Assembly: GCA_028278555.1 (NCBI GenBank)
Contig: JANQEA010000035.1
Span: 152,089 to 216,088, forward strand
DNA: 64,000 nt
Direction: 5' to 3'
DNA from: Candidatus Bipolaricaulota bacterium
GTDB taxonomy: Bacteria; Bipolaricaulota; Bipolaricaulia; UBA7950; UBA9294
Part shown: positions 1,112-26,924 of the stretch, piece by piece
Numbering within the stretch: the stretch's first letter is position 1
Layout: each line of letters begins with the position of its first letter
Notes under the pieces: model-generated
What the model was told of the DNA's origin: nothing
Seen by the model: the letters and a program-made list of their open reading frames with translations, nothing else
The model's database searches: none
Program-made: the position numbers and the translations under genes

Positions 1112-2101
1112 ATGAAGGCGTTCGTCACAGGCGGAACCGGGTTCCTGGGAGCCAACGTCGTCCGCGATCTGCTCGAACGGAACATCGGCGTCCGCGCCCT
1201 CTGCCGGCCGACGCCGTCGCGCGGAAACCTCGAGGGCCTCGACGTCGAGATCGTCGAGGGGGATCTTCGTGATGTGCAGTCGCTCCGCCGCGGGATGGCC
1301 GGCTGCGAGCTCGTCTTCCACGTCGGCGCCCTCTACTCGTTCTGGGTCCGACCTCCCGGTCTGATCTACGAGGTCAACGTCGATGGAACGCGGAACGTCT
1401 TCGACGCCGCCCTCGAAGAGGGGATCGCGCGGGTCGTCTACACGAGCTCGGTCGCGGCACTCGGCCTCCGCGACAATGGACATCCGGCCGACGAGACGAC
1501 CGCGACGTCACTCGCCGAGGTCGTCGGCGACTACAAGAAGACGAAGTACCTCGCCGAGCAGATCGCGCTCGAGTACAGCGCGAAGCTCCCGATCGTCATC
1601 GTCAATCCGAGCTTCCCGGTCGGACCGTGGGACGCGAAGCCGACTCCGACCGGCCAGACGATCGTCGACTTCCTCAACCGGAAGATGCCCGCCTACCTCG
1701 ATACCGGGATGAACGTCGTCGACGCCCAGGACGTCGCTCTCGGCCACTGGCTGGCCCTCGAGAAGGGGACGGTCGGCGAACGGTACATCCTCGGTGGCGA
1801 AAACGTGACGATGAAGGGGCTGTTGGATCTGCTCGCCGAGATCACCGGGTTGCCATCACCTAGAATCAGGCTCCCGTACACGCCGATCCTCGCGATGTCC
1901 TACCTAAACGCCGGGTTCTGCAAGCTCTTTCCTCGGATCACCCCGCGGATGACGCCGGAGACGATCCGGATGTCGAGCCACTACATGTACTTCGATCCGA
2001 CCAAGGCCGTCCGAGAGCTCGGTTTCCCGCAGACCCCTGCCAAGGACGCCCTCGCCAAGGCCGTCGACTGGTATGGGGAGAATGGGTACGTGAAGAACTG
2101 A
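1112..2101 (+). CDS. NAD-dependent epimerase/dehydratase family protein (HpnA/dihydroflavonol-reductase-like)
   Basis: N-terminus carries the GGTGFLGANV Rossmann motif and the product is about 330 aa. An AGGAGG ribosome-binding site sits 7 nt upstream of the ATG at 1112. The ORF track frame 752..2101 is too long at its 5' end. Confidence 0.8.
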   Translation: MKAFVTGGTGFLGANVVRDLLERNIGVRALCRPTPSRGNLEGLDVEIVEGDLRDVQSLRRGMAGCELVFHVGALYSFWVRPPGLIYEVNVDGTRNVFDAALEEGIARVVYTSSVAALGLRDNGHPADETTATSLAEVVGDYKKTKYLAEQIALEYSAKLPIVIVNPSFPVGPWDAKPTPTGQTIVDFLNRKMPAYLDTGMNVVDAQDVALGHWLALEKGTVGERYILGGENVTMKGLLDLLAEITGLPSPRIRLPYTPILAMSYLNAGFCKLFPRITPRMTPETIRMSSHYMYFDPTKAVRELGFPQTPAKDALAKAVDWYGENGYVKN

Positions 2102-2250
2102 GAGGCGGAAGTATTCGACGCGTGGCAGCTGTGAAACATCGACTTTCCACTCTCAGCGCTACGCTCACTCGACTCGCAGCGCCTGGAACACCGTCAGATC
2201 AACACTGTCTCTTCGAGCAGCGGCTTCTTGACTCTGATCGAAAGGATCAA

Positions 2251-3579
2251 CTACGGCAGCTTCTTGAGAATGGCCTTGATCTTCGAATCCAGCTTGTTCT
2301 TGAGAGTAGTGATGTTCGGGTAGAACACCACCGCGAAGTCCTTGATGTCGAAATGGAGCATCGTTCCTTCTCTTGCAGTAAAGATGACTCTCTTGTTGAC
2401 GCCGTGAGTGTATCCGATTTCGTAATAGACATTGGGTCTTTCGTGCGTGAGATCCGCAATGACGAATTGCGCTGAATCTATCGATTCCATGATCTTGTCA
2501 GTTATCTTCTCCGTATCCTCAACATCATCGACCCTGTAGGCCTTCAGATCGTTCTCTTCACATACCTCCTTGATCGCAGCGTGAACATCGTCCAGGCCTG
2601 GATCTTCCTTTGTCATGGCCATGATGATGAACACCTCTCTCGATAGCTGCGGTATCCCCGCACCGGTTTCTGCAGATGCCACAACTCCACCTCCCAATTC
2701 CCGATACAGATTAGCCAGCTTCTCCTGCTCAGCTGCAAGTTGGTGAGGTGTCTTCTTGCTTGAGTGCAAATCCTCGACCAGACTTGCAAGCCGAGCATAG
2801 CTCTGAAGCCATGCCTCTGCGATGAACCCAATCCAACGATTGTGATCCTCCACTTCGTCTACAGCGAGCAGTTCCTCGTAGTACTCAGCTCTGTTTCCCA
2901 GAAAGAAGCGATCGGTACCAATGAGCGTATGGTCGAGTCTGTATCCACCAATGAGCATAGCATAATTCGCTAGTAGACGCGCAACACGCCCGTTTCCATC
3001 TAGAAACGGGTGGATTCGGGCAATCCCGTAGTGCACAACAGCTGAGACTACCACCGGGTTAGCATCGGGATTGGATTTCACCCAGTGCAGCATAGCCTGG
3101 AGAGCAAGCGAAACTGTCTCTGGCTTCGGCGGAGTGTAGAGGATCTTGCGGTCCGGCATTCTGATAACGTAATTCTGTACTTCACGCAGCTTTCCTCCGC
3201 CGCTTCCGGGAGTGAGGCGTCGGTGGGCCTCCTGGATGAGCGGAAGACTGATGGGCGCGTCTTCTGCCGCACAATCCATTAGGTATTCGATCGCCTCTGC
3301 GTAAGCTTGAATCTCGTGTCCAGATACACCAGCATCGGGCGTGCGGATACCCCGGGGGATGCCCAGAGGGGTGTCTATCCCTGTAGCCGATAGGAACTCA
3401 CCAGATTGAAGAATGCTGATAATCTCGTCCCGGTTCTTGGAAATCGACAGTACTGTTTGAACGTAGGTGTAGTGACGCGTGATTCCCTGTAGCTTTGAGA
3501 CTAGATCAGGAGTGTAGCTGAACTCGATGCTGAAACTGTCAGTCATCTTGGACTCTGCGTTTCTCTCAACGACAGACAT
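2251..3579 (-). CDS. Fic/DOC (AMPylase-type) domain fused to a C-terminal nucleoside 2-deoxyribosyltransferase/TIR-like Rossmannoid domain
   Basis: The canonical Fic motif HPFLDGNGRVARLL sits at about residues 190-203. Residues about 316-442 carry FVIADLTHERPNVYYEIGYTHGVNKRVIF, typical of the NDT/TIR-like fold with a conserved Glu. GC is about 45-50% against about 67% in the flanks. An alternative start is MTDSFS at 3546. Confidence 0.7.
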   Translation of the reverse strand: MSVVERNAESKMTDSFSIEFSYTPDLVSKLQGITRHYTYVQTVLSISKNRDEIISILQSGEFLSATGIDTPLGIPRGIRTPDAGVSGHEIQAYAEAIEYLMDCAAEDAPISLPLIQEAHRRLTPGSGGGKLREVQNYVIRMPDRKILYTPPKPETVSLALQAMLHWVKSNPDANPVVVSAVVHYGIARIHPFLDGNGRVARLLANYAMLIGGYRLDHTLIGTDRFFLGNRAEYYEELLAVDEVEDHNRWIGFIAEAWLQSYARLASLVEDLHSSKKTPHQLAAEQEKLANLYRELGGGVVASAETGAGIPQLSREVFIIMAMTKEDPGLDDVHAAIKEVCEENDLKAYRVDDVEDTEKITDKIMESIDSAQFVIADLTHERPNVYYEIGYTHGVNKRVIFTAREGTMLHFDIKDFAVVFYPNITTLKNKLDSKIKAILKKLP

Positions 3580-3865
3580 GGTGAGACATCAGACACGCCA
3601 TTCGAGCCTCCCTTCGCTGAACCCAGACTGCCGCCACATGTTCTGACTCTCTCCCATACCAGATTACCACTGGAACTCGCGCAGTGTAGGTTACCATTGT
3701 GGAGTACGTCGATCAATGCTCCGCCAGCGAGCCAACTTCCCCCCACCTCTTCAGCCTTGCTTGAGAATCGCAATCCCATCTCCCACAGGCCGCAGCGGCC
3801 TCTGAACGGCGCGGCGTATCTCGTACTACTCGTTGATGCCGTGCAGACAGAATGCCGCCTCCAGT

Positions 3866-4246
3866 TCATCTCCTACGGAGCGGGTGCTTCCGCGCCTTCA
3901 GTGTCAGCAGACCGAACGCAATGAGCCCTGCTATTAAGGACGCGATGAATGAGAACTCCAGCTCCGGCCATGGTTTTGCTTCAAGCTGAAGACCACAGAA
4001 CGGAGCAATGAATCCGACGGCGATAGCAGCTGCAATGCCCAGGCTCAAACTCGCCATCGCACGTGTCAGAAGGTCACGCGCAAGCGATCTTCCGATTTGC
4101 AGGGCGGCCAGACCAACCAGTGCGCCAACAAGCAGATCCCAGCTGTCGTAGGTGCCAGGCGCATACTCGACTGCAAGTAACGCAGCTAGAAGGGTAGCTC
4201 CCGCCGCTCCACGGCCGACGGTAGTTTCTTGAGTCGCGTTTCTCAC
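3866..4246 (-). CDS. Small membrane protein, about 127 aa with roughly 3 predicted TM helices, hypothetical
   Basis: A GAGGAGGAG ribosome-binding site sits 5 nt upstream of the GTG start at 4246. Hydrophobic segments are TLLAALLAV, LLVGALVGLAAL, LGIAAAIAVGFIAPF and FIASLIAGLIAFGLL. It lies inside the low-GC island next to the Fic fusion gene. The ORF track gives a longer version, 3866..4309. Confidence 0.45.
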   Translation of the reverse strand: MRNATQETTVGRGAAGATLLAALLAVEYAPGTYDSWDLLVGALVGLAALQIGRSLARDLLTRAMASLSLGIAAAIAVGFIAPFCGLQLEAKPWPELEFSFIASLIAGLIAFGLLTLKARKHPLRRR

Positions 4247-4375
4247 TAGTACTCCTCCTCTCGCGATCCTCTCCCACACGCGCATCGGCATCAATGATTT
4301 CTGAGCCAATCCTGCGGATGAGGACTTGCTCGATCAAGAGCGACTACCATCCCGCTCGGAGCATCCCTGCAAGAT

Positions 4376-4773
4376 TCACTCGAACACGTTGCCAGTGACG
4401 TTCCCTGCGGCATCGGTTTCTAGCAGTCCTTTGGACGAATCCAGGAGTACGAGTTCATTCTCTCACGAGTCGCGAACCACGACGCAACGACCGATCCGGA
4501 TGTCGAACGGTTGGGCAACTGTCGTACCGCCCGCTTCCGTGAAGCAGACAGCGGCCTCGTCGGCGTTCGATACCTTTAGGTCGATCTCGGGCGGCTTGGG
4601 CTCCGTGTGAAGCACGATCTCCGTTTCGTCCTTCCCTAGCGCTAGCCAACCTCATCTTCGGTCCGCCAAAGGAGTTCCAGCCTAAGCTTGTCTCGGTAGA
4701 ACGACAGACCCGATTCGAGGTCGTCCACGGACAGCTGCACACAATCCACCTTCTCGATGAGCGGTTCGGTCAC
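4376..4773 (-). pseudogene. VOC/glyoxalase-family gene disrupted by a frameshift and in-frame stops
   Basis: The N-terminal frame reads VTEPLIEKVDCVQLSVDDLESGLSFYRDKLRLELLWRTEDEVG* with a GGAGGA ribosome-binding site before a GTG. The C-terminal part is in another frame (LHTEPKPPEIDLKVSNADEAAVCFTEAGGTTVAQPFDIRIGRCVVVRDS*ENELVLLD) with a TGA where Trp or Pro is expected. The break coincides with the palindrome CTAGCGCTAG. Confidence 0.5.
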
Positions 4774-4790
4774 GGTTTCCTCCGGAGTCT

Positions 4791-6170
4791 CTACCTCTTC
4801 AGCGCAGCCTTGACCAGCTGCCGACCTAGATCCCAGAGTCCGCCGCGGAGCTTGTGCGCTTTGTCGAGGGTCGCGTCAATGGCTGAGAGCGCGAAGTCCA
4901 CATCCTCGTCCGAGAGGATCAGCGGCGGGAGGAACTTGATGATGTTCACCCGGTGGCCCGACACCTGGGTGAGGAGCCGGTGGTCGCGCATCAGACCCAT
5001 GACAACGAGCTGGGCGAAGAGCCCGGCCTGCATCGTTTCGAGCGCCTTCCACGCCGCCTTCAGCTTGAGCGACTTCGGTGGCCCGAACTCCATCCCGATC
5101 ATCAGTCCCTTCCCGCGGACGTCGTGGAGCATCTCGTACCGCGACTGCATGTCACGGAGGCCGGCGAGGAGCCGCTCCCCCTGCCGAGCGGCATTCTCGA
5201 TCAGGTTCTCCGACTCCAGCACTTCGAGCGTCGCTAGGCCTGCCCCCATCGCCAGCTCGTTCATCCCGAACGTGTTCGAGTGGACGACGCACCGCTCGAG
5301 TCCGGAGAACGTCTTCTTGTGCAGGTCGCGGCGGATCAGGATCGCGCCGACCGGGATGAACCCGCCGGAGAGGGCCTTCGAGATCGGAACGATGTCCGGT
5401 TCGAGGCCCCAATGCTCGCCGCCGAAGAAGCGGCCGGTCCGGCCGAGTCCGGCCTGGATCTCGTCGACGATGAAGACCGTCCCGTGCTTCCGGCAGAGCC
5501 GCTGCGCCTCGGGGAGGTACTCGTCGTCCGGCATGTAGACGCCCTTTCCCTGGATCGGCTCGGCGATGAACGCGGCCACATCCGCGCGCTCAAGCTCGCG
5601 CTTGAGCGCGTTCAGGTCGTTCAACGGGACGCCCGTGGAGGGAAGGAGCTGTCCGAACCCCTCGCGGAAGTGCGGGCTCCCGTTCACCGAGAGGGCCCCG
5701 AGGGTGAGTCCATGGAACGCGTGATCGATGTAGACGAACCGGTCACGCTTCGTCGCGGCACGGGAGAACTTCAGCGATCCCTCGACCGCTTCGGCCCCGG
5801 AGTTGGTGAAGAAGACAGCGTCGAGCCCAGGGTAGCTACGCTGGGCCCGTTCGGTCAGTCGCTCGGCGAGGAGGCCGGCGAGGAGCGGACAGTCCATCTG
5901 GATCAGGTTTGGCCGATCGAGGTCGAGCAGTTGGTGAAGGGTCTCCTTCAGGACCGGATGGCTCCGGCCGACCTGGTAGACGCCGTAGCCGGAGAGGAAG
6001 TCGAGGTACCGATTCCCACCGTCGTCGTAGAGGTACGCCCCCTCGCCGCGTGTGTAGGCTACGTCGTAGTCGATGATCTGCAGGACCCTCGCCAACGCCG
6101 GATTGACGTGGCGCTTGTGCAATTCGATTTGTTCCCCGAGCCGTTCTTCGATCAGCTTCGCGATCTCCAT
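4791..6170 (-). CDS. Class III pyridoxal-phosphate aminotransferase (ornithine/GABA/putrescine aminotransferase-like)
   Basis: A 459-aa product with class III transaminase motifs (FTNSGAEAVE, DEIQAGLGRTG, pyridoxal-phosphate Lys region SKALSGG). Confidence 0.85.
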   Translation of the reverse strand: MEIAKLIEERLGEQIELHKRHVNPALARVLQIIDYDVAYTRGEGAYLYDDGGNRYLDFLSGYGVYQVGRSHPVLKETLHQLLDLDRPNLIQMDCPLLAGLLAERLTERAQRSYPGLDAVFFTNSGAEAVEGSLKFSRAATKRDRFVYIDHAFHGLTLGALSVNGSPHFREGFGQLLPSTGVPLNDLNALKRELERADVAAFIAEPIQGKGVYMPDDEYLPEAQRLCRKHGTVFIVDEIQAGLGRTGRFFGGEHWGLEPDIVPISKALSGGFIPVGAILIRRDLHKKTFSGLERCVVHSNTFGMNELAMGAGLATLEVLESENLIENAARQGERLLAGLRDMQSRYEMLHDVRGKGLMIGMEFGPPKSLKLKAAWKALETMQAGLFAQLVVMGLMRDHRLLTQVSGHRVNIIKFLPPLILSDEDVDFALSAIDATLDKAHKLRGGLWDLGRQLVKAALKR

Positions 6171-22352: not shown

Positions 22353-22971
22353 TCCGGGATTGAGGGAACTCGAGCGGCGCGTCTGGCTGCGGACATTCGA
22401 ACACGGGCTCTGGGACGTCGCCATCGGCCTGCTGTTACTGGCGTTCGGGATCGGCATCCTGACGGAGTTCTACTGGCTCTCCGCCATCATCGTTCCGGTC
22501 AGCCTGCCTGCGATGCGAGACCTTGCCCGACGGGCGATTGTCCCGAGGATCGGGCACGCGACGTTCCGCGGGCGGCGAAAGAGGAGCCTTGTTCACGTTC
22601 AGCTGATCCTGACCGGCCTCGCCGTCGCCGGTGCCGGGATGTTCGCGTTCACGAGCTTCGCGTCACGGGGGACGGCGCCCGACTGGATGCTCTGGATACG
22701 GTCTCACTTCATCGTCGTCATCGGGCTGATCTGGGGCGGGGCACTCGGCGTCGCCGGGTGGACCGTCGATTTTCCCCGTCTCTACGCGTACGGCGCGATC
22801 CTCTTCGGAGCTCTGCTCGCCGTCGACCTCATCCCATCCGGCTACCACCTTGCCCACGCGCTGATCGCCGTCGGCGGACTGATCGCGCTCGTCGGGGCCG
22901 CGCTGTTCATCCGCTTCACCCGTCGGTATCCGCGTCACCCCAAACCGCTCGAAGGAGCGGCCGATGACTGA
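22342..22971 (+). CDS. Polytopic membrane protein, paralog B
   Basis: Overlaps paralog A by 11 nt. Shares the loop motif IVPRIGHATFRGRRKRS and a DFPRLYAYG segment with paralog A. Confidence 0.6.
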   Translation: MPASPGLRELERRVWLRTFEHGLWDVAIGLLLLAFGIGILTEFYWLSAIIVPVSLPAMRDLARRAIVPRIGHATFRGRRKRSLVHVQLILTGLAVAGAGMFAFTSFASRGTAPDWMLWIRSHFIVVIGLIWGGALGVAGWTVDFPRLYAYGAILFGALLAVDLIPSGYHLAHALIAVGGLIALVGAALFIRFTRRYPRHPKPLEGAADD

Positions 22972-23284
22972 GGCGGAGCGCGACGATGCCCGCGGCCTGC
23001 AGATCGACCGCGCGATTCACGAGCCAGCACGCCTGCTGATCACCGCCCACCTCTACGTCGTCGAATCGGCCGACTACGTGTTCCTGATGGGGAACACCGG
23101 CCTGACATGGGGAAACCTCTCGTCGCACCTCTCCAAATTGGAGGCCACCGGCTACGTCGAGATCACCAAGGAGTTCGTCGAGAAGAAACCGCACACGATG
23201 GTCAAGCTGACGGAAGAAGGCCGGACGGCGTTCGACACCTATCGCCGCCAGATGAAGGCCCTGTTCGAGGATCTCCCGGACTGA
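22964..23284 (+). CDS. Winged-helix (HTH_34/ArsR-like) transcriptional regulator
   Basis: A 106-aa product with an HTH wing (GNTGLTWGNLSSHLSKLEATGYVEITKEF). It overlaps the upstream gene by 8 nt. Confidence 0.65.
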   Translation: MTEAERDDARGLQIDRAIHEPARLLITAHLYVVESADYVFLMGNTGLTWGNLSSHLSKLEATGYVEITKEFVEKKPHTMVKLTEEGRTAFDTYRRQMKALFEDLPD

Positions 23285-23316
23285 CAAGCGCAACCACCCG
23301 ATGGAGGAGGTGACCT

Positions 23317-23400
23317 ATGGAAGGAACCACGTGGATCCTGATCGGCCTCGGCGTTCTCGCCGTGATCGGCGCGATTATCCTCCTGTCACAGGCGAAGTAG
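23317..23400 (+). CDS. Predicted 27-aa single-TM micropeptide (MEGTTWILIGLGVLAVIGAIILLSQAK)
   Basis: A GGAGGAGG ribosome-binding site sits 5-8 nt upstream of the ATG. The product is one hydrophobic helix and is followed by a hairpin. It is not in the ORF track because it is under 60 aa. Confidence 0.3.
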   Translation: MEGTTWILIGLGVLAVIGAIILLSQAK

Positions 23401-23412
23401 AACATCTGGTCC

Positions 23413-23450
23413 GCCCGGTCGTTCTTCTTACGGCCGGGCATCTGTTTCCT
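23413..23450 (+). terminator. Hairpin after the micropeptide ORF (putative operon terminator)
   Basis: GCCCGGUC/GGCCGGGC forms an 8-bp stem with one G-U pair and an 11-nt loop, followed by AUCUGUUUCC. Confidence 0.35.
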
Positions 23451-23729
23451 CGACCGGATCGGCAATCCGAGATCGACGGCCAGGCTTCCGGACAGAAGGA
23501 CGGCGTCGATCACCCGGCTGAAGCTACCGGAACGTAAGCTTCACGGAACCGAGGTCGACTCGGACTCTCCAGCCTGTAGCCCCTATCGTGATGTACACAA
23601 CGACGTTCATGTCCCTCCTTGCACATCCAAGCGGTTCTCAGGACTGGCTCGTGAAGGTCGCATGCCGATTGCAGTGTAAGACCCAACCCTAATTCCGCGT
23701 AGCTCGTCTGTTCACATGAATGCTCAGAT

Positions 23730-23759
23730 TTGACATTCACAGAACTTCCATGATATACG
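23730..23759 (+). promoter_or_regulatory. Putative promoter of the glycine-rich protein gene (TTGACA -35, extended -10 TGaTATACG)
   Basis: Lies in an AT-rich region (about 40% GC). The spacer is 18 nt and a TG motif precedes the -10 hexamer. Confidence 0.4.
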
Positions 23760-23791
23760 GTCCCTGATTTCGACTATGGGAGATGGTTCAA

Positions 23792-25789
23792 ATGTCGAAA
23801 CTCGGGAAACGCATCTGCGTTGTGTGCGCGATCATCCTTGTGGCAGCTGTTGCTATGACCTGCGTTGCGCAGGAGTACGGAAAGGATAACCCACAAGCGT
23901 GGGGCGGATACCCTGAGGGATACAAGTTTGGTGCTGATGGAACCCAGCCGGATCATCCTGACGGATACGACGGCTGGCCAGCAGACCATCCCAACAATCC
24001 CAACAAGGGCTACGCCGGCAAAGGCGGCAAGGGCGCGGACGCGACTAAAGAAGGCCACGCAGCTGGGAATGGAGGGAAGGGTGGTGCTGGACCAAAGAAT
24101 GATGATGGCCCCCTTAATTCCTGGAACGGCGGCAAAGGCGGAGCCGGCGGAGGCAGCTCAGTTCCGGGAATACGCGGTGGAAATGGCGGCAAAGGCGGCG
24201 ATTCCACACACGGAGCCGGAGGCGATGGCGGCAATGGCGGCGATGGCGGCGAGGACGATGTGACGGTGAAGCACTCCGCCGGCGGTAACGGCGGCAAAGG
24301 CGGAGACAGCGTCAACGGTAACGGCGGCAAGGGCGGAGACGCTGGGAAGGGTAGCGACAGTGCGCCCGGCGGAAACGGCGGCGACGGAGGCACCAGCATT
24401 CATAAGACAGGAGGAGCGGGGGGTGACGGCGGCGACGGCGGCAGCAATGGCGAGGGTGGCAACGGAGGAAGTGGCGGTCACACGAGACATGGGACGGGCG
24501 GACCGGGCGGCAATGGCGGAAACGGCGGCGCGAGCAAGATTCCAGGACAGAAGGGAAAGACGGGAGGTGAGGGCGGCGATGGCGGCAATGGGTATGTCGG
24601 CGGTCCCTGCGACAAGGTAGGTAACGGGGCCGGAGGCAAGGGCGGACAAGGCGGGCAAGGCGGCGCGGGTTACTCTGGCGACGATGAGAACGACGCAACG
24701 GGCGGCGGGGATGGTGGGAAAGGCGGGGCCGGAGGAAATGCCGGAGACGGGGAAGATGCATCCGCGGGCAATGGCGGGGATGGTGGGAAAGGCGGCACAG
24801 CGAACAAGAAACCTGCAATTGGGGGCACTGGCGGGAAGGGTGGCAAGGGCGGCCGCTCTGGGCTCGGCAACAAAGGCGGCACTGGCGGAAAGGGTGGACC
24901 AGGAGGAGATGGACCAGACAAGCATGGCGGAGAAGGCGGGGCTCCTGGTGAAGGCGGAGACTATTCCCCATCTGGCCCCATGAAGCCTGGCAAAGGAGGC
25001 ATGGGTGGCAGCGGCGGAAAGGGAAGCCCCGAAAAAAAGGATCGAAGTCGTGAGAGAGGTGCCTCCGGCTCTTGTGTGAGATACGTCTGCCTTCCCTTCT
25101 CAGGTTTCGGATGGGAACGGGCTTGGACCTCGGACACTGATCGGGCCGAGTGTGTTGGCTTGGGCCTTTGCTGCGTCGGCCTAGATGTGGGCGTCGAAGT
25201 CGTGACAGTCGACCATGCCGGAATGCTGTCCGACATCATAGATCTCACACCACTGCTAGGCTGGTGGAGCAGCGAGTCGTACTCCCCGATGATCGGCGTG
25301 GCCATCACTGCGCTTCTCCCGGAATGCGGAACCGGGCTACCTCTTGTCGACATAGCCTATGGCTCGGCCAGCATCCCTGTGAGTGGTCACGCCGAGTGGA
25401 TCCTCGAAGATTCCGATTATGGACTCGCGGAGATCCAGGGCATCCTTGGCATAACCCGTGCGTCCTTGGGATTCGGGATGCGCATCGGTGCACTCTGCGA
25501 ATGCCCTGTGCTGACACCGTACGTCGACCTCAAAGCGGGAATCGCACAGTCGTGGTTAGAGTTCGAGGATGTCCAATCCGGGATGGATTCGGTAGATCTG
25601 CGGACACTGCTAGAAACTAACACAAGTGCTATCACACAGTACTACGTGCAAGCTTCCATGGGAGCCTCGTTCTCACTCGGTCCACAGCTTGACCTTCGTC
25701 TTGTCGGGACTGGAAGGATCTCGGGGGGAGCGGATCAATCAACCCATTTCGAGTTCGGGGGAAGTCTGTCACTGGGGCTCCGCTTCTAG
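23792..25789 (+). CDS. Secreted glycine-rich GGxGGxGG (PGRS-like) repeat protein with a C-terminal beta-barrel (autotransporter-like) domain
   Basis: Has a Sec signal peptide (MSKLGKRICVVCAIILVAAVAMTCVAQE). About 17 repeats of GG[NDTK]GG[KDNS]GG span residues about 75-410. The last 230 aa or so show alternating-hydrophobic beta-strands and end in LSLGLRF with a terminal Phe. Codon usage is atypical for the genome. Start is taken at the second ATG, 23792, which has the better ribosome-binding-site spacing. Confidence 0.65.
   Translation: MSKLGKRICVVCAIILVAAVAMTCVAQEYGKDNPQAWGGYPEGYKFGADGTQPDHPDGYDGWPADHPNNPNKGYAGKGGKGADATKEGHAAGNGGKGGAGPKNDDGPLNSWNGGKGGAGGGSSVPGIRGGNGGKGGDSTHGAGGDGGNGGDGGEDDVTVKHSAGGNGGKGGDSVNGNGGKGGDAGKGSDSAPGGNGGDGGTSIHKTGGAGGDGGDGGSNGEGGNGGSGGHTRHGTGGPGGNGGNGGASKIPGQKGKTGGEGGDGGNGYVGGPCDKVGNGAGGKGGQGGQGGAGYSGDDENDATGGGDGGKGGAGGNAGDGEDASAGNGGDGGKGGTANKKPAIGGTGGKGGKGGRSGLGNKGGTGGKGGPGGDGPDKHGGEGGAPGEGGDYSPSGPMKPGKGGMGGSGGKGSPEKKDRSRERGASGSCVRYVCLPFSGFGWERAWTSDTDRAECVGLGLCCVGLDVGVEVVTVDHAGMLSDIIDLTPLLGWWSSESYSPMIGVAITALLPECGTGLPLVDIAYGSASIPVSGHAEWILEDSDYGLAEIQGILGITRASLGFGMRIGALCECPVLTPYVDLKAGIAQSWLEFEDVQSGMDSVDLRTLLETNTSAITQYYVQASMGASFSLGPQLDLRLVGTGRISGGADQSTHFEFGGSLSLGLRF
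24000..25030 (+). repeat. Imperfect tandem DNA repeats (about 27-33 bp units, ggcggcaaaggcggngac-like) encoding the Gly-rich repeats
   Basis: GGCGGCAAAGGCGG and AATGGCGGCGA(T/C)GGCGG units recur through this interval. Confidence 0.6.
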
Positions 25790-25976
25790 AGTCTTGAGTT
25801 GGGAGGGTCTCAGAGGTACAGGCACAAGTTCCCGGAAGCCAAGCCTGTGGCTACTGGTGAAGGTGGCCCAGGGCCGATGACGCAATACGCCGGAGGTTCA
25901 GTCATTGCATTCATGATGGGCCACTTGTCTTGGCGGCTGGACTCCCGCCGCCAGAATTCGCGCAACGTGAACTGCG

Positions 25977-26924
25977 CTACTTGTACCGAATTCTCGGATT
26001 GACGGCGGCGTAGAGGATGTCGGCGAGCAGGTTGGCGAAGACAACGCCGATGACGACGACGATCGCGATCGCCTGGAGGAGCGGGAAGTCGCGCCGGTCG
26101 ATCGCGAAGAGGAGCAGCCGGCCGAGCCCCGGGTAGTTGAAGACGTTCTCGATGACGATGATCCCGCCGATCAGCCAGCCGAAGCTGATCGCGATCACCG
26201 TGATCGTCGGGAGGAGGGCGTTCCGCAGAACGTGCTTGAAGACGACGATCCACCTCGGGAGCCCTTTCAAGACGGCCGTCCGCACGTATGGCCGACGCAT
26301 CTGCTCAGCAACCTCGGCGCGGGTCAGCCGCGCGATGTACGCGAGGAGGACGAACGTCGCCGTCAGCGACGGGAGGATGAGGAACGGAAGCGCCTCCCAG
26401 AAGCCGGTCCCCGGCGCGATCGGCGAGCTCGCCGGGAGGAGATCGAGCCGGTGCGCGAGAAGCTCGATCAGCAGGACGCCGGTGACGAACTCGGGGAGAC
26501 CGACAACCGCCAGGCTTCCGAGGCTGATCACGTGATCGGCGATCCCGTGCTCCCGGAGTCCGGCCCAGACGCCGAGGACGACGGAGAGCGGCACGGCGAG
26601 GACGAGGGCGACGACTGCAAGCATCAGCGAATTGCGGAGCCGTTCGACGACAAGCGGTCGAACCGGAAGATCGGTCCCGAATGACGTCCCCCAGTCGCCG
26701 CGGACGAACCGTCCAAGCCACGACCCGTACTGCACGATCGCCGGTCGATTGAGGCCGAGCTCTTCGCGGAGCGCGGCGACCGCTTCCTCGCCGGCTTCGC
26801 GCCCGAGGATCACCCGCGCGACGTCCCCGGGAAGGAACTGTGTCGCCGCGAAGATCAACGCCGACGTCAACAGAAGCGTCAGCAGAAGGAAGCCGAGCCG
26901 CTGGATCAGAAGGCGTCCCATCAT
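25977..26924 (-). CDS. ABC transporter permease (DppB/OppB family)
   Basis: Has 6 TM helices and the EAA-like permease signature, and is 315 aa. Confidence 0.85.
   Translation of the reverse strand: MMGRLLIQRLGFLLLTLLLTSALIFAATQFLPGDVARVILGREAGEEAVAALREELGLNRPAIVQYGSWLGRFVRGDWGTSFGTDLPVRPLVVERLRNSLMLAVVALVLAVPLSVVLGVWAGLREHGIADHVISLGSLAVVGLPEFVTGVLLIELLAHRLDLLPASSPIAPGTGFWEALPFLILPSLTATFVLLAYIARLTRAEVAEQMRRPYVRTAVLKGLPRWIVVFKHVLRNALLPTITVIAISFGWLIGGIIVIENVFNYPGLGRLLLFAIDRRDFPLLQAIAIVVVIGVVFANLLADILYAAVNPRIRYK

What the first reader, a model, noticed from the sequence alone, without database searches (positions are those of the whole stretch)
2102..4375. Low-GC island of about 2.3 kb inserted between a housekeeping epimerase gene and a broken VOC gene
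GC drops from about 66-68% in the flanks to about 43-52% across 2100-4375, for example 43% at 2461-2520. The segment carries only two plausible genes, the Fic fusion and a small TM protein, both antisense to the flanking operon, and abuts a VOC gene carrying a frameshift and premature stops. Together these look like a horizontally acquired cargo island, the usual home of toxin or defence modules. This is the most likely place for an undescribed system in the window.
Basis: seen in the sequence. Interest (0 to 1): 0.8.

Follow-up and report, generated by a model that had tools for sequence, protein, structure and literature searches.

The report
Acquired island carrying Fic–glycosidase toxin gene
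A 2.7-kb stretch of foreign, low-GC DNA sits exactly between two converging housekeeping genes and carries one intact gene for a very rare two-enzyme fusion (a protein-AMPylating Fic domain joined to a nucleotide-cleaving domain), which looks like a single-gene anti-phage or toxin module; its function has not been tested.

Summary
The GC dip is real. Positions 2102-4790 are 54.6% GC against 63.6±1.3% for the rest of the window (z = -6.8). This is the lowest-GC and most deviant tetranucleotide stretch in the 64 kb.

Two related Bipolaricaulota-type genomes have the epimerase and the aminotransferase abutting, with overlapping stop codons. The insert therefore runs from stop codon to stop codon, and the broken VOC gene lies inside it rather than flanking it.

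All island genes are co-directional with the aminotransferase. They are antisense only to the epimerase.

The one convincing intact gene (2251-3579, minus strand, 442 aa) fuses two domains:
- a SoFic-like Fic AMPylase with an intact HPFLDGNGRVAR motif but no (S/T)xxxE(G/N) inhibitory motif and no wHTH tail;
- a C-terminal NDT/DNPH1/MilB/TIR-type N-glycosidase module with the catalytic Glu conserved.

That module is common and is fused to many other N-terminal domains. The Fic fusion itself is represented by only two clusters among 1.84 billion cluster representatives.

Homologues lie beside ThsB-TIR, AbiV and Ppl-like genes. dN/dS is about 0.08.

The TM ORF has no homologue. ORF108 is not gene-like. 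No mobility genes, flanking repeats, antitoxin or RNA element were found.

Verdict: a horizontally acquired insert carrying a new architectural variant of known defence or toxin domains. Its function is inferred, not shown.

The parts
2102..4790 (.). Horizontally acquired low-GC insert (2,689 nt) between the stop codons of two convergent host genes. The left junction may lie 2-3 codons inside the epimerase: its last residues are KN*, where the relatives have WR* or RGGSAG*.
   Evidence: GC is 0.546 against 0.636±0.013 (z = -6.8) and it is the largest tetranucleotide outlier. In L008 the two stop codons overlap (CTAG); in L013 the 3' ends overlap by about 12 nt.
2251..3579 (-). Intact 442-aa Fic / NDT-like fusion gene, the only conserved intact cargo gene. 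The true start may be Met12 (3546), judging from the homologues.
   Evidence: Pfam Fic E 1.4e-19, PADLOC SoFic E 5.9e-38, PADLOC 'Effector TIR' E 9.5e-13. Full-length homologues P0002, P0003 and P0121 are 56% identical and P0004 is 80%. dN/dS against L019 is 0.08.
2755..3522 (-). Fic (AMPylase) domain, residues about 20-275, with the target-binding beta-hairpin flap at residues 138-148.
   Evidence: AlphaFold model mea4ff56c817a. The top Foldseek PDB hits are FICD and SoFic 3eqx/3zcn, E about 5e-8. phmmer against SoFic gives E 5e-14.
2977..3012 (-). Fic catalytic motif HPFLDGNGRVAR (H190-R201).
   Evidence: A regular-expression match in all five family members; the residues are invariant in A1. 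They align to SoFic H198/R206, and Y233 aligns to Y241 (PMC12249575).
3370..3393 (-). Family-conserved LSxxGIDT (residues 63-70), at the place where class II Fic proteins carry the inhibitory (S/T)xxxE(G/N) helix. The canonical motif is absent.
   Evidence: No [ST]xxxE[GN] occurs anywhere in P0001-P0004 or P0121, whereas the nearest Fic relatives have SSQIEG or SSRIEG. The model has low confidence here (pLDDT below 50 at residues 69-82).
2647..2748 (-). Predicted disordered linker (residues 278-311) between the two domains. It takes the place of the wHTH C-terminal domain of SoFic.
   Evidence: pLDDT is 30-57. No HTH family was found by Pfam.
2260..2640 (-). C-terminal NDT / DNPH1 / MilB / TIR-type N-glycosidase-like module (residues 314-440). 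The putative nucleophile is E387 (codon 2419-2421), and D376 is invariant.
3580..3865 (-). 286-nt spacer upstream of the Fic fusion. It holds most of ORF108 (3543-3869), which is judged not to be a gene.
   Evidence: ORF108 has no Pfam, PADLOC or NCBIfam hit and has GC1 below GC2 (0.495 against 0.624). There is no Rfam hit, no tandem repeat, and the fold is no better than shuffles (z = +1.5).
3866..4309 (-). ORFan ORF of 147 aa (141 aa as called in the source record) with about 3-4 hydrophobic segments. Whether it is a gene is unverified, and it is not a conserved partner of the Fic fusion.
   Evidence: The only hit among 5.8 billion proteins is itself, P0240. There are no family hits above noise. 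It is absent from L001-L006 and L019.
4376..4773 (-). VOC/glyoxalase-family pseudogene with one frameshift near 4645 and one in-frame stop at 4463-4465. It is part of the insert.
   Evidence: Three-frame translations. There is no VOC at this locus in L007-L017.
1112..2101 (+). Left flank: host HpnA-type NAD-dependent sugar epimerase, convergent with the island genes.
   Evidence: TIGR03466 scores 434.9 bits against a cut-off of 367.65. GC3 is 0.867. The orthologue abuts the aminotransferase in L008 and L013.
4791..6170 (-). Right flank: host class-III aminotransferase, co-directional with and upstream of the island genes.
   Evidence: Pfam Aminotran_3 E 1.3e-88. GC3 is 0.874. Orthologues are 72-89% identical in Bipolaricaulota/Acetothermia-labelled MAGs.

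Best explanation
**What it is.** The segment 2102-4790 is DNA acquired by horizontal transfer. It was inserted exactly between the 3' ends of two convergent host genes (an HpnA-type epimerase and a class-III aminotransferase) in a Bipolaricaulota-like genome.

**State of the cargo.** Most of it is decayed or doubtful: a VOC pseudogene, an ORFan membrane-like ORF and a non-coding spacer. One gene is intact and under purifying selection. It encodes a 442-aa single-polypeptide toxin or abortive-infection candidate.

**Proposed mechanism.**
- The N-terminal SoFic-type Fic domain would AMPylate a cellular target. For SoFic that target is EF-Tu, which blocks translation.
- The C-terminal NDT/DNPH1/TIR-type module would cleave the N-glycosidic bond of NAD+ or of a nucleotide. 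This is what TIR NADases and the retron Ec86 NDT effector do.
- This module replaces the wHTH tail that controls SoFic.
- The canonical inhibitory glutamate is missing. Control of the Fic domain must therefore come from somewhere else, probably from the state of the C-terminal module, for example its oligomerisation.

**Shown:** foreign composition, the insertion point, the domain identities, intact catalytic motifs, rarity of the fusion, defence-gene neighbours of homologues, and purifying selection.

**Inferred:** AMPylation, glycosidase activity, the substrates, toxicity, the anti-phage role and the coupling between the two domains.
For: **Insertion**
- Composition is foreign: z = -6.8, and GC3 is 0.56-0.59 against 0.87 in the flanks.
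- The site is empty in L008 and L013, where the stop codons overlap.

**Fic domain**
- Pfam E 1.4e-19 and PADLOC SoFic E 5.9e-38.
- phmmer against SoFic structures gives E 5e-14, with H190, R198 and Y233 aligned to the ATP-binding residues (PMC12249575).
- Foldseek finds FICD and SoFic.
- The catalytic motif is invariant in the family.

**C-terminal module**
- E387 aligns with the NDT nucleophile and is invariant in 105-108 sequences.
- All 105 relatives tested match the PADLOC CBASS 'Effector TIR' model.
- One relative is fused to the T6SS carrier Hcp, the position normally taken by a toxin.
- One relative lies between tail genes of a viral contig.

**Context of homologues**
- L001 lies beside a ThsB_TIR gene and an HNH fragment. 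L002 lies beside HEPN_AbiV and a Ppl-like ATPase.
- The kinase-NDT relative in L103 lies beside ThsB_TIR + SLATT and QueC + Ogg.

**Selection**
- dN/dS against L019 is 0.08: 0.15 for the Fic part and 0.03 for the NDT part.

**Literature**
- SoFic is a defence protein (bioRxiv 10.1101/2022.05.11.491447).
- It is toxic through AMPylation and is controlled by its C-terminal domain (PMC12249575).
- It targets EF-Tu (bioRxiv 10.64898/2026.07.09.737422).
- NDT domains have been predicted as C-terminal Abi toxins (PMC3710099).
- The retron Ec86 effector has an NDT-like domain (bioRxiv 10.1101/2023.08.16.553469).
Against: - There is no experimental evidence for any activity or for defence.
- Only two independent genomic contexts exist for the full-length fusion, so the guilt-by-association argument is thin.
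- Other carriers of the C-terminal module sit among ordinary metabolic or transporter genes (L018 and L106).
- The island has no integrase, transposase, tRNA or flanking repeats, so how it arrived is unknown.
- The canonical inhibitory motif is absent and no antitoxin was found. This leaves open how a cell tolerates the protein, or whether the Fic domain is toxic at all.
- The window protein scores below Pfam's gathering cut-off for Nuc_deoxyrib_tr (21.6 against 28.8 bits) and for CAP12-PCTIR_TIR (13.2 against 24.7).
- The substrate of the C-terminal module cannot be read from the fold, which sits between NMP hydrolases and TIR NADases.
- dS against L019 is saturated (1.4), so the dN/dS value is only approximate.
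- The closest relative, L007 (89%), breaks inside the aminotransferase, so the age and distribution of the insert within the species are unknown.
Confidence: 0.6

Rival explanations
1. A decaying remnant of a larger mobile element with no current role. The Fic fusion is simply the last ORF not yet broken, or it is kept only as a selfish addiction toxin rather than as immunity.
For: - The neighbouring cargo is degraded or doubtful: a VOC pseudogene, an ORFan and a non-gene-like ORF108.
- No mobility genes remain.
- A related copy in L019 is 5'-truncated and bracketed by 55-nt repeats, which shows that this gene family does decay.
Against: - The ORF is intact over 442 codons and both catalytic motifs are preserved.
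- dN/dS is 0.08 against the 77%-identical copy.
- No cognate antitoxin ORF was found, which argues against a classical addiction module.
Confidence: 0.15
2. A physiological regulator rather than an immune protein. The Fic domain would reversibly AMPylate and deAMPylate a host protein, as FICD does for BiP and as proposed for SoFic and EF-Tu. The C-terminal module would act as a nucleotide-binding sensor or oligomerisation domain without catalysis.
For: - SoFic has been described as a dual transcriptional and translational regulator with constitutive deAMPylation (bioRxiv 10.64898/2026.07.09.737422).
- Some carriers of the module lie among ordinary genes.
Against: - The catalytic Glu and Asp of the module are invariant across more than 100 sequences with very different partners.
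- The module is fused to Hcp in the toxin position.
- The gene is foreign, rare and patchily distributed, unlike a housekeeping regulator.
- The fusion lacks the wHTH DNA-binding domain.
Confidence: 0.12
3. An effector detached from a multi-gene signalling system of the CBASS, Pycsar or Thoeris type. The C-terminal module would be the NADase and would be activated by a nucleotide signal made by a gene elsewhere in the genome.
For: - The PADLOC CBASS 'Effector TIR' model matches at E 9.5e-13, and ThsB matches weakly.
- One relative carries a UniRef name beginning 'CD-NTase-associated p...'.
- L001 has a ThsB_TIR neighbour.
Against: - There is no CD-NTase, pyrimidine cyclase or ThsA-like gene in the island.
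- None lies next to P0090, P0105 or the L002 copy.
- No known signal-binding domain (SAVED, STING, SLOG, cNMP-binding) was detected in the protein.
Confidence: 0.08
4. An assembly or binning artefact: a foreign fragment joined into the contig by mis-assembly of a metagenome.
For: - The source is a metagenome-assembled genome.
- The composition change is abrupt.
- The nearest relative's contig (L007) breaks close to this site.
Against: - Both flanks are syntenic with L008 and L013 right up to the stop codons, so two precise chimeric joins would be needed.
- The VOC gene has its own Shine-Dalgarno sequence and GTG start 18 nt after the aminotransferase stop.
- The proteins are recorded on a single 407,888-nt contig.
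Confidence: 0.05

Closest known systems
SoFic, the class II Fic AMPylase of Shewanella oneidensis / E. coli 'Sofic'; single-gene anti-phage system of Millman et al. 2022
   Same: - The Fic core has the canonical HPFLDGNGRxxR motif and a beta-hairpin flap.
- The ATP-contacting His, Arg and Tyr are conserved.
- It is the best PADLOC hit and among the best PDB matches.
- It is a single gene carried on foreign DNA.
   Different: - Only about 30-36% identical to the nearest ordinary Fic proteins.
- Scores 69.6 bits against a cut-off of 550 for the NCBIfam SoFic equivalog.
- Has no (S/T)xxxE(G/N) inhibitory motif.
- The wHTH C-terminal domain that EcSofic needs for toxicity (PMC12249575) is replaced by a disordered linker and an NDT/TIR-like domain.
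- There is no room for a downstream AS1-like ORF: only 149 nt separate the gene from the epimerase stop.
NDT superfamily N-glycosidases (nucleoside 2-deoxyribosyltransferase, DNPH1/Rcl, MilB, BcmB), including the NDT-like effector of retron Ec86
   Same: - The motif IADLT...NVYYEIGYAH lines up with IADLS...AFELGYAA of a solved NDT, placing E387 on the nucleophile.
- In the retron Ec86 effector, the NDT-like part lies within a larger defence protein (bioRxiv 10.1101/2023.08.16.553469).
   Different: - Sequence identity to solved members is only 11-20%.
- The score is below Pfam's gathering cut-off.
- Oligomeric state and substrate are unknown.
- It is not associated with a reverse transcriptase or an msDNA.
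TIR-domain NADase effectors (Cap12 TIR-STING, TIR-SAVED, PycTIR, ThsB, SARM1)
   Same: - The PADLOC CBASS 'Effector TIR' model matches the window protein and all 105 relatives tested.
- A catalytic Glu sits in the equivalent position. The published SARM1/MilB comparison is cited from my own knowledge.
   Different: - Pfam TIR-type models are not met: CAP12-PCTIR_TIR scores E 0.094, 13.2 against 24.7 bits.
- There is no signal-sensing domain and no cyclase nearby.
- The top structural hits are NMP hydrolases rather than TIRs.
Abi-type proteins with a variable N-terminal domain and a C-terminal enzymatic toxin (Anantharaman et al. 2013, PMC3710099)
   Same: - The architecture follows the same logic. 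One C-terminal catalytic module, 40-63% identical, is joined to many different N-terminal domains: kinases, AAA+, HEAT, Hcp and Fic.
- NDT was explicitly listed there as such a toxin.
   Different: - Here the N-terminal partner is itself a catalytically intact toxin-type enzyme (Fic) rather than a presumed binding domain.
- None of the AbiJ-type N-terminal domains named in that paper was detected.

Membership tests
SoFic defence protein (class II Fic AMPylase) | Fic core motif HxFx(D/E)GNGRxxR | tested here: met
   HPFLDGNGRVAR at residues 190-201, invariant in the five family members.
SoFic defence protein (class II Fic AMPylase) | N-terminal inhibitory helix with (S/T)xxxE(G/N) | tested here: not met
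   A regular-expression search finds no match anywhere in P0001-P0004 or P0121. The nearest ordinary Fic relatives carry SSQIEG or SSRIEG. The family has a conserved LSxxGIDT instead.
SoFic defence protein (class II Fic AMPylase) | C-terminal winged-helix domain that contacts the AMPylase domain (needed for toxicity in EcSofic) | tested here: not met
   Residues 278-311 are predicted disordered and 314-440 form an alpha/beta NDT/TIR-like fold. There is no HTH family in Pfam. The PADLOC SoFic match stops at profile position 282 of 361.
SoFic defence protein (class II Fic AMPylase) | Score above the curated family cut-off (NCBIfam NF046030 equivalog) | tested here: not met
   69.6 bits against a cut-off of 550.
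SoFic defence protein (class II Fic AMPylase) | Protein AMPylation and protection against phage | not testable with these tools
   Requires biochemistry and plaque assays.
Class I Fic toxin-antitoxin (VbhT/VbhA type) | Adjacent small antitoxin gene supplying the (S/T)xxxE(G/N) helix | tested here: not met
   A six-frame scan of 2090-4800 gives 4 motif matches, all in non-coding-looking frames, where I estimate about 4 by chance. Homologous loci share no small neighbour gene.
NDT superfamily (Nuc_deoxyrib_tr / DNPH1 / MilB) | Flavodoxin-like NDT fold | tested here: met
   [not shown]
NDT superfamily (Nuc_deoxyrib_tr / DNPH1 / MilB) | Catalytic nucleophile Glu at the start of the helix after the 'D...' strand | tested here: met
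   E387 aligns with the Glu of AFELGYAAALGK in NDT 6qai, although the profile match is weak (E 0.56). It is invariant in 105-108 sequences, as is D376.
NDT superfamily (Nuc_deoxyrib_tr / DNPH1 / MilB) | Pfam PF05014 gathering score | tested here: not met
   21.6 bits against 28.8 for the window protein. 86 of 105 relatives match at E up to 1e-3.
NDT superfamily (Nuc_deoxyrib_tr / DNPH1 / MilB) | N-glycosidic bond cleavage or transfer on (deoxy)nucleosides or nucleotides | not testable with these tools
   Requires an enzyme assay.
TIR NADase effectors (CAP12/PycTIR, ThsB) | Match to TIR family models above threshold | tested here: inconclusive
   [not shown]
CBASS / Pycsar / Thoeris multi-gene systems | Signal-producing partner (CD-NTase, pyrimidine cyclase or ThsB/ThsA pair) in the same locus | tested here: not met
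   No such gene lies in 2102-4790 or in the immediate flanks. None lies next to P0090 or P0105.
Genomic island (horizontally acquired insert) | Deviant composition and absence from the same site in related genomes | tested here: met
   z = -6.8 for GC, and the top tetranucleotide outlier. The site is empty in L008 and L013.
Genomic island (horizontally acquired insert) | Mobility signature: integrase or transposase, tRNA target, flanking direct repeats | tested here: not met
   There is no such ORF. The only tRNAs lie at 60.4 kb. The only notable repeat is a 15-nt pair that is not at the junctions.

The most novel reading that the evidence does not exclude
**Reading.** The Fic / NDT-like protein is an undescribed kind of single-protein abortive-infection system in which the two enzymes are functionally coupled rather than merely tethered.

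**Possible forms of coupling:**
- The widespread C-terminal N-glycosidase module is the shared killing effector of a large uncharacterised family whose N-terminal partners include kinases, AAA+, HEAT and Fic. The Fic domain would then act as the infection sensor or switch, for example by auto-AMPylation or by AMPylation of a phage protein that releases the glycosidase.
- Alternatively, the glycosidase acts on the AMP moiety or on nucleotides that the Fic reaction handles.

**Why regulation may be new.** Both SoFic control elements, the inhibitory Glu and the wHTH domain, are missing. Regulation would therefore have to work by a new mechanism.
Probability: 0.2. Interest if true: 0.75.

Novelty: new variant of a known kind. 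Interest (0 to 1): 0.5.

Why it matters
If the gene is active, it would be the first example of a Fic AMPylase hard-wired to a nucleotide or NAD+ N-glycosidase. That would combine two separately known ways of shutting down an infected cell, a translation block and metabolite depletion, in one polypeptide.

It would also lack both known SoFic control elements. This makes it a natural experiment on how Fic toxicity is gated.

More broadly, it draws attention to a very common and highly conserved C-terminal module. The module is 40-63% identical across proteins with unrelated N-termini. It is found in defence islands, on an Hcp carrier and among phage tail genes. Apart from a PADLOC CBASS-effector model, it appears to be uncharacterised.

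For genome annotation, the locus shows that the insertion boundary and the 'native' status of a neighbouring pseudogene cannot be read from GC content alone. Synteny moved the boundary by about 400 nt.

Tried and rejected
1. **Flanking repeats or att sites.** The only notable pair is an exact 15-nt direct repeat (1962-1976 and 4492-4506). I estimate about 0.015 expected by chance. It lies inside the epimerase and the VOC remnant, not at the junctions, so I treat it as chance.
2. **tRNA target.** None is nearer than 60.4 kb.
3. **The MITE-like 55-nt repeat that brackets the truncated copy in L019.** It is absent from the window.
4. **A trans-acting antitoxin with the inhibitory motif.** Motif matches are at chance level and fall in non-coding-looking frames.
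5. **ORF108 as a gene.** It has no family hits and a non-coding GC-by-position pattern.
6. **The TM ORF as a conserved partner.** It has no homologues and is absent from homologous loci.
7. **An RNA element in the 286-nt spacer.** There is no Rfam match, no tandem repeat, and the fold is no better than shuffles.
8. **Promoter and terminator scan.** It found nothing above the shuffle expectation.
9. **Source record look-up by exact protein.** P0001, P0240 and the window ORF are not on record.
10. **Metagenome scan with the family alignment.** The patterns chosen came from the generic Fic motif, so it returned only ordinary Fic loci and gave no new fusion contexts.
11. **Plasmid and phage collections.**
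   - There is no DNA match for the island in the plasmid collection (phages were not searched with the island DNA).
   - No record in either collection covers at least 80% of the protein.
   - There is no close viral relative of the fusion.
12. **DUF4062 TIR-like NADase (Swarozyc).** I considered this family, but there is no Pfam match.


Full report
**1. The observation**

A sliding 200-nt GC profile falls from 0.64-0.69 in the flanks to 0.465-0.60 between about 2100 and 4800. In 1-kb bins, the two lowest of the whole 64-kb window are 2001-3000 (0.521) and 3001-4000 (0.551).

Exact figures:

| Region | GC |
|---|---|
| 2102-4375 | 0.540 |
| 2102-4790 | 0.546 |
| Same-size windows outside the island | 0.636 ± 0.013 |

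- The z-score for 2102-4790 is -6.8.
- It is the lowest-GC stretch and the largest strand-symmetrised tetranucleotide outlier of all same-size windows.
- Third-codon-position GC is 0.585 for the Fic ORF and 0.561 for the TM ORF, against 0.867 for the epimerase and 0.874 for the aminotransferase.

The compositional anomaly is real and far beyond local fluctuation.

**2. Gene layout**

Every ORF of interest in the segment lies on the minus strand:

| Feature | Coordinates |
|---|---|
| Fic fusion | 2251-3579 |
| ORF108 | 3543-3869 |
| TM ORF | 3866-4309 |
| VOC remnant | 4376-4773 |
| Aminotransferase (right flank) | 4791-6170 |

Only the epimerase (1112-2101, plus strand) is on the other strand. 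The island genes are therefore co-directional with, and downstream of, the aminotransferase, and convergent with the epimerase. They are not 'antisense to the flanking operon' as a whole.

The epimerase scores above the curated cut-off for HpnA, TIGR03466 (434.9 against 367.65 bits). The aminotransferase is class III (Pfam E 1.3e-88).

The VOC remnant has these features:
- a GTG start behind a GGAGGA box, 18 nt after the aminotransferase stop;
- a frameshift near 4645;
- an in-frame stop at 4463-4465;
- its natural stop at 4376-4378.

**3. Synteny and boundaries**

I scanned one genome per species (GTDB representatives) with the aminotransferase. This returned eleven loci, most from MAGs labelled Bipolaricaulota or Acetothermia, at 72-89% identity. 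A tblastn of all window proteins against them gave the following:
- In L008 (75%) and L013 (72%) the gene order TAtT/TPR protein, aminotransferase, epimerase is the same as in the window, but the aminotransferase and epimerase touch.
- In L008 the two stop codons overlap in CTAG. In L013 the 3' ends overlap by about 12 nt (compared).
- No VOC, TM or Fic homologue is present in any of these loci.

The insert is therefore the whole interval between the two stop codons, 2102-4790 (2,689 nt), and the VOC pseudogene is cargo rather than a native flank. The epimerase ends in KN*, where the relatives have WR* or RGGSAG*. The left junction may therefore lie two or three codons inside the gene.

The closest relative, L007 (89%), breaks inside the aminotransferase and is uninformative.

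I found no mobility signature:
- no integrase or transposase;
- no tRNA nearer than 60.4 kb;
- no junction repeats.

How the DNA arrived is unknown.

**4. The cargo other than the Fic gene**

- **TM ORF.** Its only match among 5.8 billion proteins is itself (P0240, the 141-aa version called on the same 407,888-nt contig). Family hits are at noise level only. It has three or four hydrophobic stretches. It may be a real orphan membrane protein or a chance ORF. It is not a conserved partner, because none of the homologous Fic-fusion loci has it.
- **ORF108.** It has no hits, and its GC1 is below its GC2, which is not coding-like.
- **The 286-nt spacer upstream of the Fic gene.** It has no Rfam match, no tandem repeat, and folds no better than shuffles.

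**5. The Fic fusion: N-terminal half**

- Pfam Fic matches residues 110-207 (E 1.4e-19). The PADLOC SoFic model matches residues 87-279 (E 5.9e-38), but only profile positions 91-282 of 361.
- The best solved relatives by sequence are SoFic structures (E 5e-14). H190, R198 and Y233 align to the ATP-contacting H198, R206 and Y241 (residues named in PMC12249575).
- An AlphaFold model (pLDDT 75.9; the Fic core is mostly above 80) shows the helical Fic fold with a beta-hairpin flap. Foldseek returns FICD and SoFic.
- The catalytic motif HPFLDGNGRVAR is present and invariant in the family.

Two defining SoFic features are missing:
- There is no (S/T)xxxE(G/N) inhibitory motif anywhere in any of the five family members. 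The nearest ordinary Fic proteins (30-36% identical) carry SSQIEG or SSRIEG. The family instead has a conserved LSxxGIDT at residues 63-70, in a region the model does not resolve.
- The winged-helix C-terminal domain, which EcSofic needs for toxicity (PMC12249575), is replaced.

The NCBIfam SoFic equivalog scores 69.6 bits against a cut-off of 550. This is a SoFic-like Fic domain, not a SoFic orthologue.

I found no adjacent antitoxin. Motif matches in six frames are at chance level, and only 149 nt separate the gene from the epimerase.

**6. The Fic fusion: C-terminal half**

- Residues 314-440 were modelled alone with 108 aligned sequences. The model has pLDDT 90.6 and forms a flavodoxin-like alpha/beta domain.
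- Foldseek ranks DNPH1 and BcmB first.
- A profile of the family aligns IADLThER...PNV..YYEIGYAhAlgK with IADLSPFRskePDCgtAFELGYAAALGK of a solved NDT. This places E387 on the catalytic nucleophile (weak E-value, exact motif register).
- E387 is invariant in 105-108 sequences, together with F317, M320, D376, N383, G389, F410 and D411.
- The window protein is below Pfam's cut-off for Nuc_deoxyrib_tr (21.6 against 28.8 bits), but 86 of 105 relatives match at E up to 1e-3. All 105 match the PADLOC CBASS 'Effector TIR' model.

The domain is a catalytically intact member of the NDT/TIR assemblage of N-glycosidases. The fold does not reveal its substrate, which could be NAD+, an NMP or dNMP, or something else.

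**7. Rarity of the fusion and spread of the module**

I ran an exhaustive HMMER search of 1.84 billion cluster representatives. It gave 22,160 hits at E up to 1e-3. Among the best 150, only two carry both domains: P0002 (56% identical, full length) and P0004 (80%, a fragment). All the others match only residues about 305-442.

- The word-indexed search of 5.8 billion proteins agrees.
- No plasmid (72,556 records) or phage (50,697 records) covers at least 80% of the protein.
- No viral contig encodes a close relative.

The C-terminal module, by contrast, is abundant and strikingly conserved. It is 40-63% identical at the C-termini of proteins whose N-termini are:
- guanylate-kinase / AAA_33-type kinases;
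- RuvB-like AAA+ ATPases;
- HEAT repeats;
- a Csa3-like domain;
- an nSTAND3 NTPase;
- in P0044, the T6SS carrier Hcp.

The Hcp fusion places the module where evolved Hcp proteins carry their toxins.

**8. Genomic contexts of relatives**

| Locus | Protein | Neighbours |
|---|---|---|
| L001 | Full-length fusion | ThsB_TIR gene (Pfam E 6e-18) and an HNH fragment |
| L002 | Full-length fusion | HEPN_AbiV gene (E 3e-22) and a 946-aa Ppl-like ATPase (PADLOC E 2e-22) |
| L103 | Kinase-module protein | ThsB_TIR + SLATT, QueC + Ogg-HhH, a DEAD helicase and baeRF |
| L100 | 283-aa module protein | A 1287-aa tail protein and a tape-measure-like gene of a viral contig |
| L018 | Module protein P0090 | Lone insertion next to a DUF4160/DUF2442 pair |
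| L106 | Module protein P0105 | Lone insertion among solute-binding-protein genes |

The association with conflict genes is suggestive, but it rests on few cases.

In L019 the nearest relative (77% nucleotide identity) is 5'-truncated and bracketed by exact 55-nt repeats that contain an inverted repeat. The family therefore does undergo disruption.

**9. Selection**

By the Nei-Gojobori method, dN/dS between the window gene and L019 is 0.08 over 280 codons. It is 0.15 for the Fic part and 0.03 for the NDT-like part. dS is saturated, so the values are approximate. Both domains have been kept by purifying selection.

**10. Interpretation**

The best reading is a horizontally acquired, largely decayed insert whose one maintained gene encodes a two-enzyme toxin or abortive-infection candidate.

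The Fic half should work like SoFic:
- SoFic is a defence protein (bioRxiv 10.1101/2022.05.11.491447).
- It is toxic through AMPylation (PMC12249575).
- It AMPylates EF-Tu switch I and blocks translation (bioRxiv 10.64898/2026.07.09.737422).

The C-terminal half should work like NDT/TIR effectors:
- NDT domains were predicted as C-terminal Abi toxins (PMC3710099).
- The retron Ec86 effector uses an NDT-like domain and, according to that preprint, depletes adenine derivatives (bioRxiv 10.1101/2023.08.16.553469).

Both SoFic control elements are absent. The way the protein is kept off is therefore unknown, and it is the most interesting open point.

All activities, targets and the defence role are inferences. 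Nothing here tests them.

The rivals, in the order listed under rival explanations:
- a relic or selfish toxin;
- a physiological regulator;
- an orphaned effector of a signalling system;
- an assembly artefact.

**11. Novelty and score**

Each domain belongs to a described family with a described role in defence. The combination, and the loss of both SoFic regulatory features, is not described in the literature I could search. It is extremely rare in sequence space.

I rate it a new variant of a known kind, with moderate interest (0.5). The higher-value reading is functional coupling of the two enzymes and a large uncharacterised family built on the shared module. I give that reading about 0.2 probability.

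Noticed in passing
L019:1-1351 (ENA ERZ23498363 scaffold_705088): The nearest relative of the Fic fusion (77% nucleotide identity to window 2262-3142) is 5'-truncated. It is bracketed by exact 55-nt direct repeats (1-55 and 1145-1199). These pair with an inverted copy at 1014-1038 (core GGGGACAGACCACG), which looks like the ends of a MITE or IS. The repeat is absent from the window.
   Followed up: partly
window 22500-26000, especially ORF 23783-25789 (+): This is the second-largest tetranucleotide outlier of the window. It contains a 668-aa ORF with no Pfam hit and an extreme purine bias on the coding strand (GC skew up to +0.40 and AT skew +0.50 at 24.2-24.9 kb). GC dips flank it at 23.6-23.9 kb (0.51) and 25.4-25.85 kb (0.547).
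   Followed up: partly
proteins P0005-P0120 and P0241-P0376; loci L018, L103-L107: The C-terminal NDT/TIR-like module is an abundant and highly conserved cassette, 40-63% identical. It is fused to unrelated N-termini: GK/AAA_33 kinases, RuvB-like AAA+, HEAT, Csa3_N, nSTAND3 and Hcp. Apart from a PADLOC CBASS 'Effector TIR' model, the family seems uncharacterised. In L103 it sits in an island with ThsB_TIR + SLATT and QueC + Ogg.
   Followed up: partly
L100:5581-6432 and L101 (IMG/VR viral contigs): A 283-aa protein ending in the same module lies between a 1287-aa tail protein gene and a 1104-aa tape-measure-like gene. This is the position typical of phage 'moron' genes.
   Followed up: no
L002-L006, first ~190 nt: Five independent metagenome contigs carrying the 56%-identical fusion all begin 133-192 nt upstream of its start codon. 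This suggests a recurrent assembly break, perhaps a repeat or a hypervariable junction, at the same place.
   Followed up: no
window 1962-1976 and 4492-4506: An exact 15-nt direct repeat, CGATCCGGATGTCGA, has one copy inside the epimerase and one inside the VOC remnant. I estimate about 0.015 such pairs by chance in 3.2 kb. Neither copy is at an insert junction, so I treat it as coincidence.
   Followed up: yes
window 1112-2101: The flanking epimerase scores above the curated cut-off for HpnA, the hopanoid-associated sugar epimerase (TIGR03466). The genome's nearest relatives are labelled Bipolaricaulota or Acetothermia. I did not look for other hopanoid genes.
   Followed up: no
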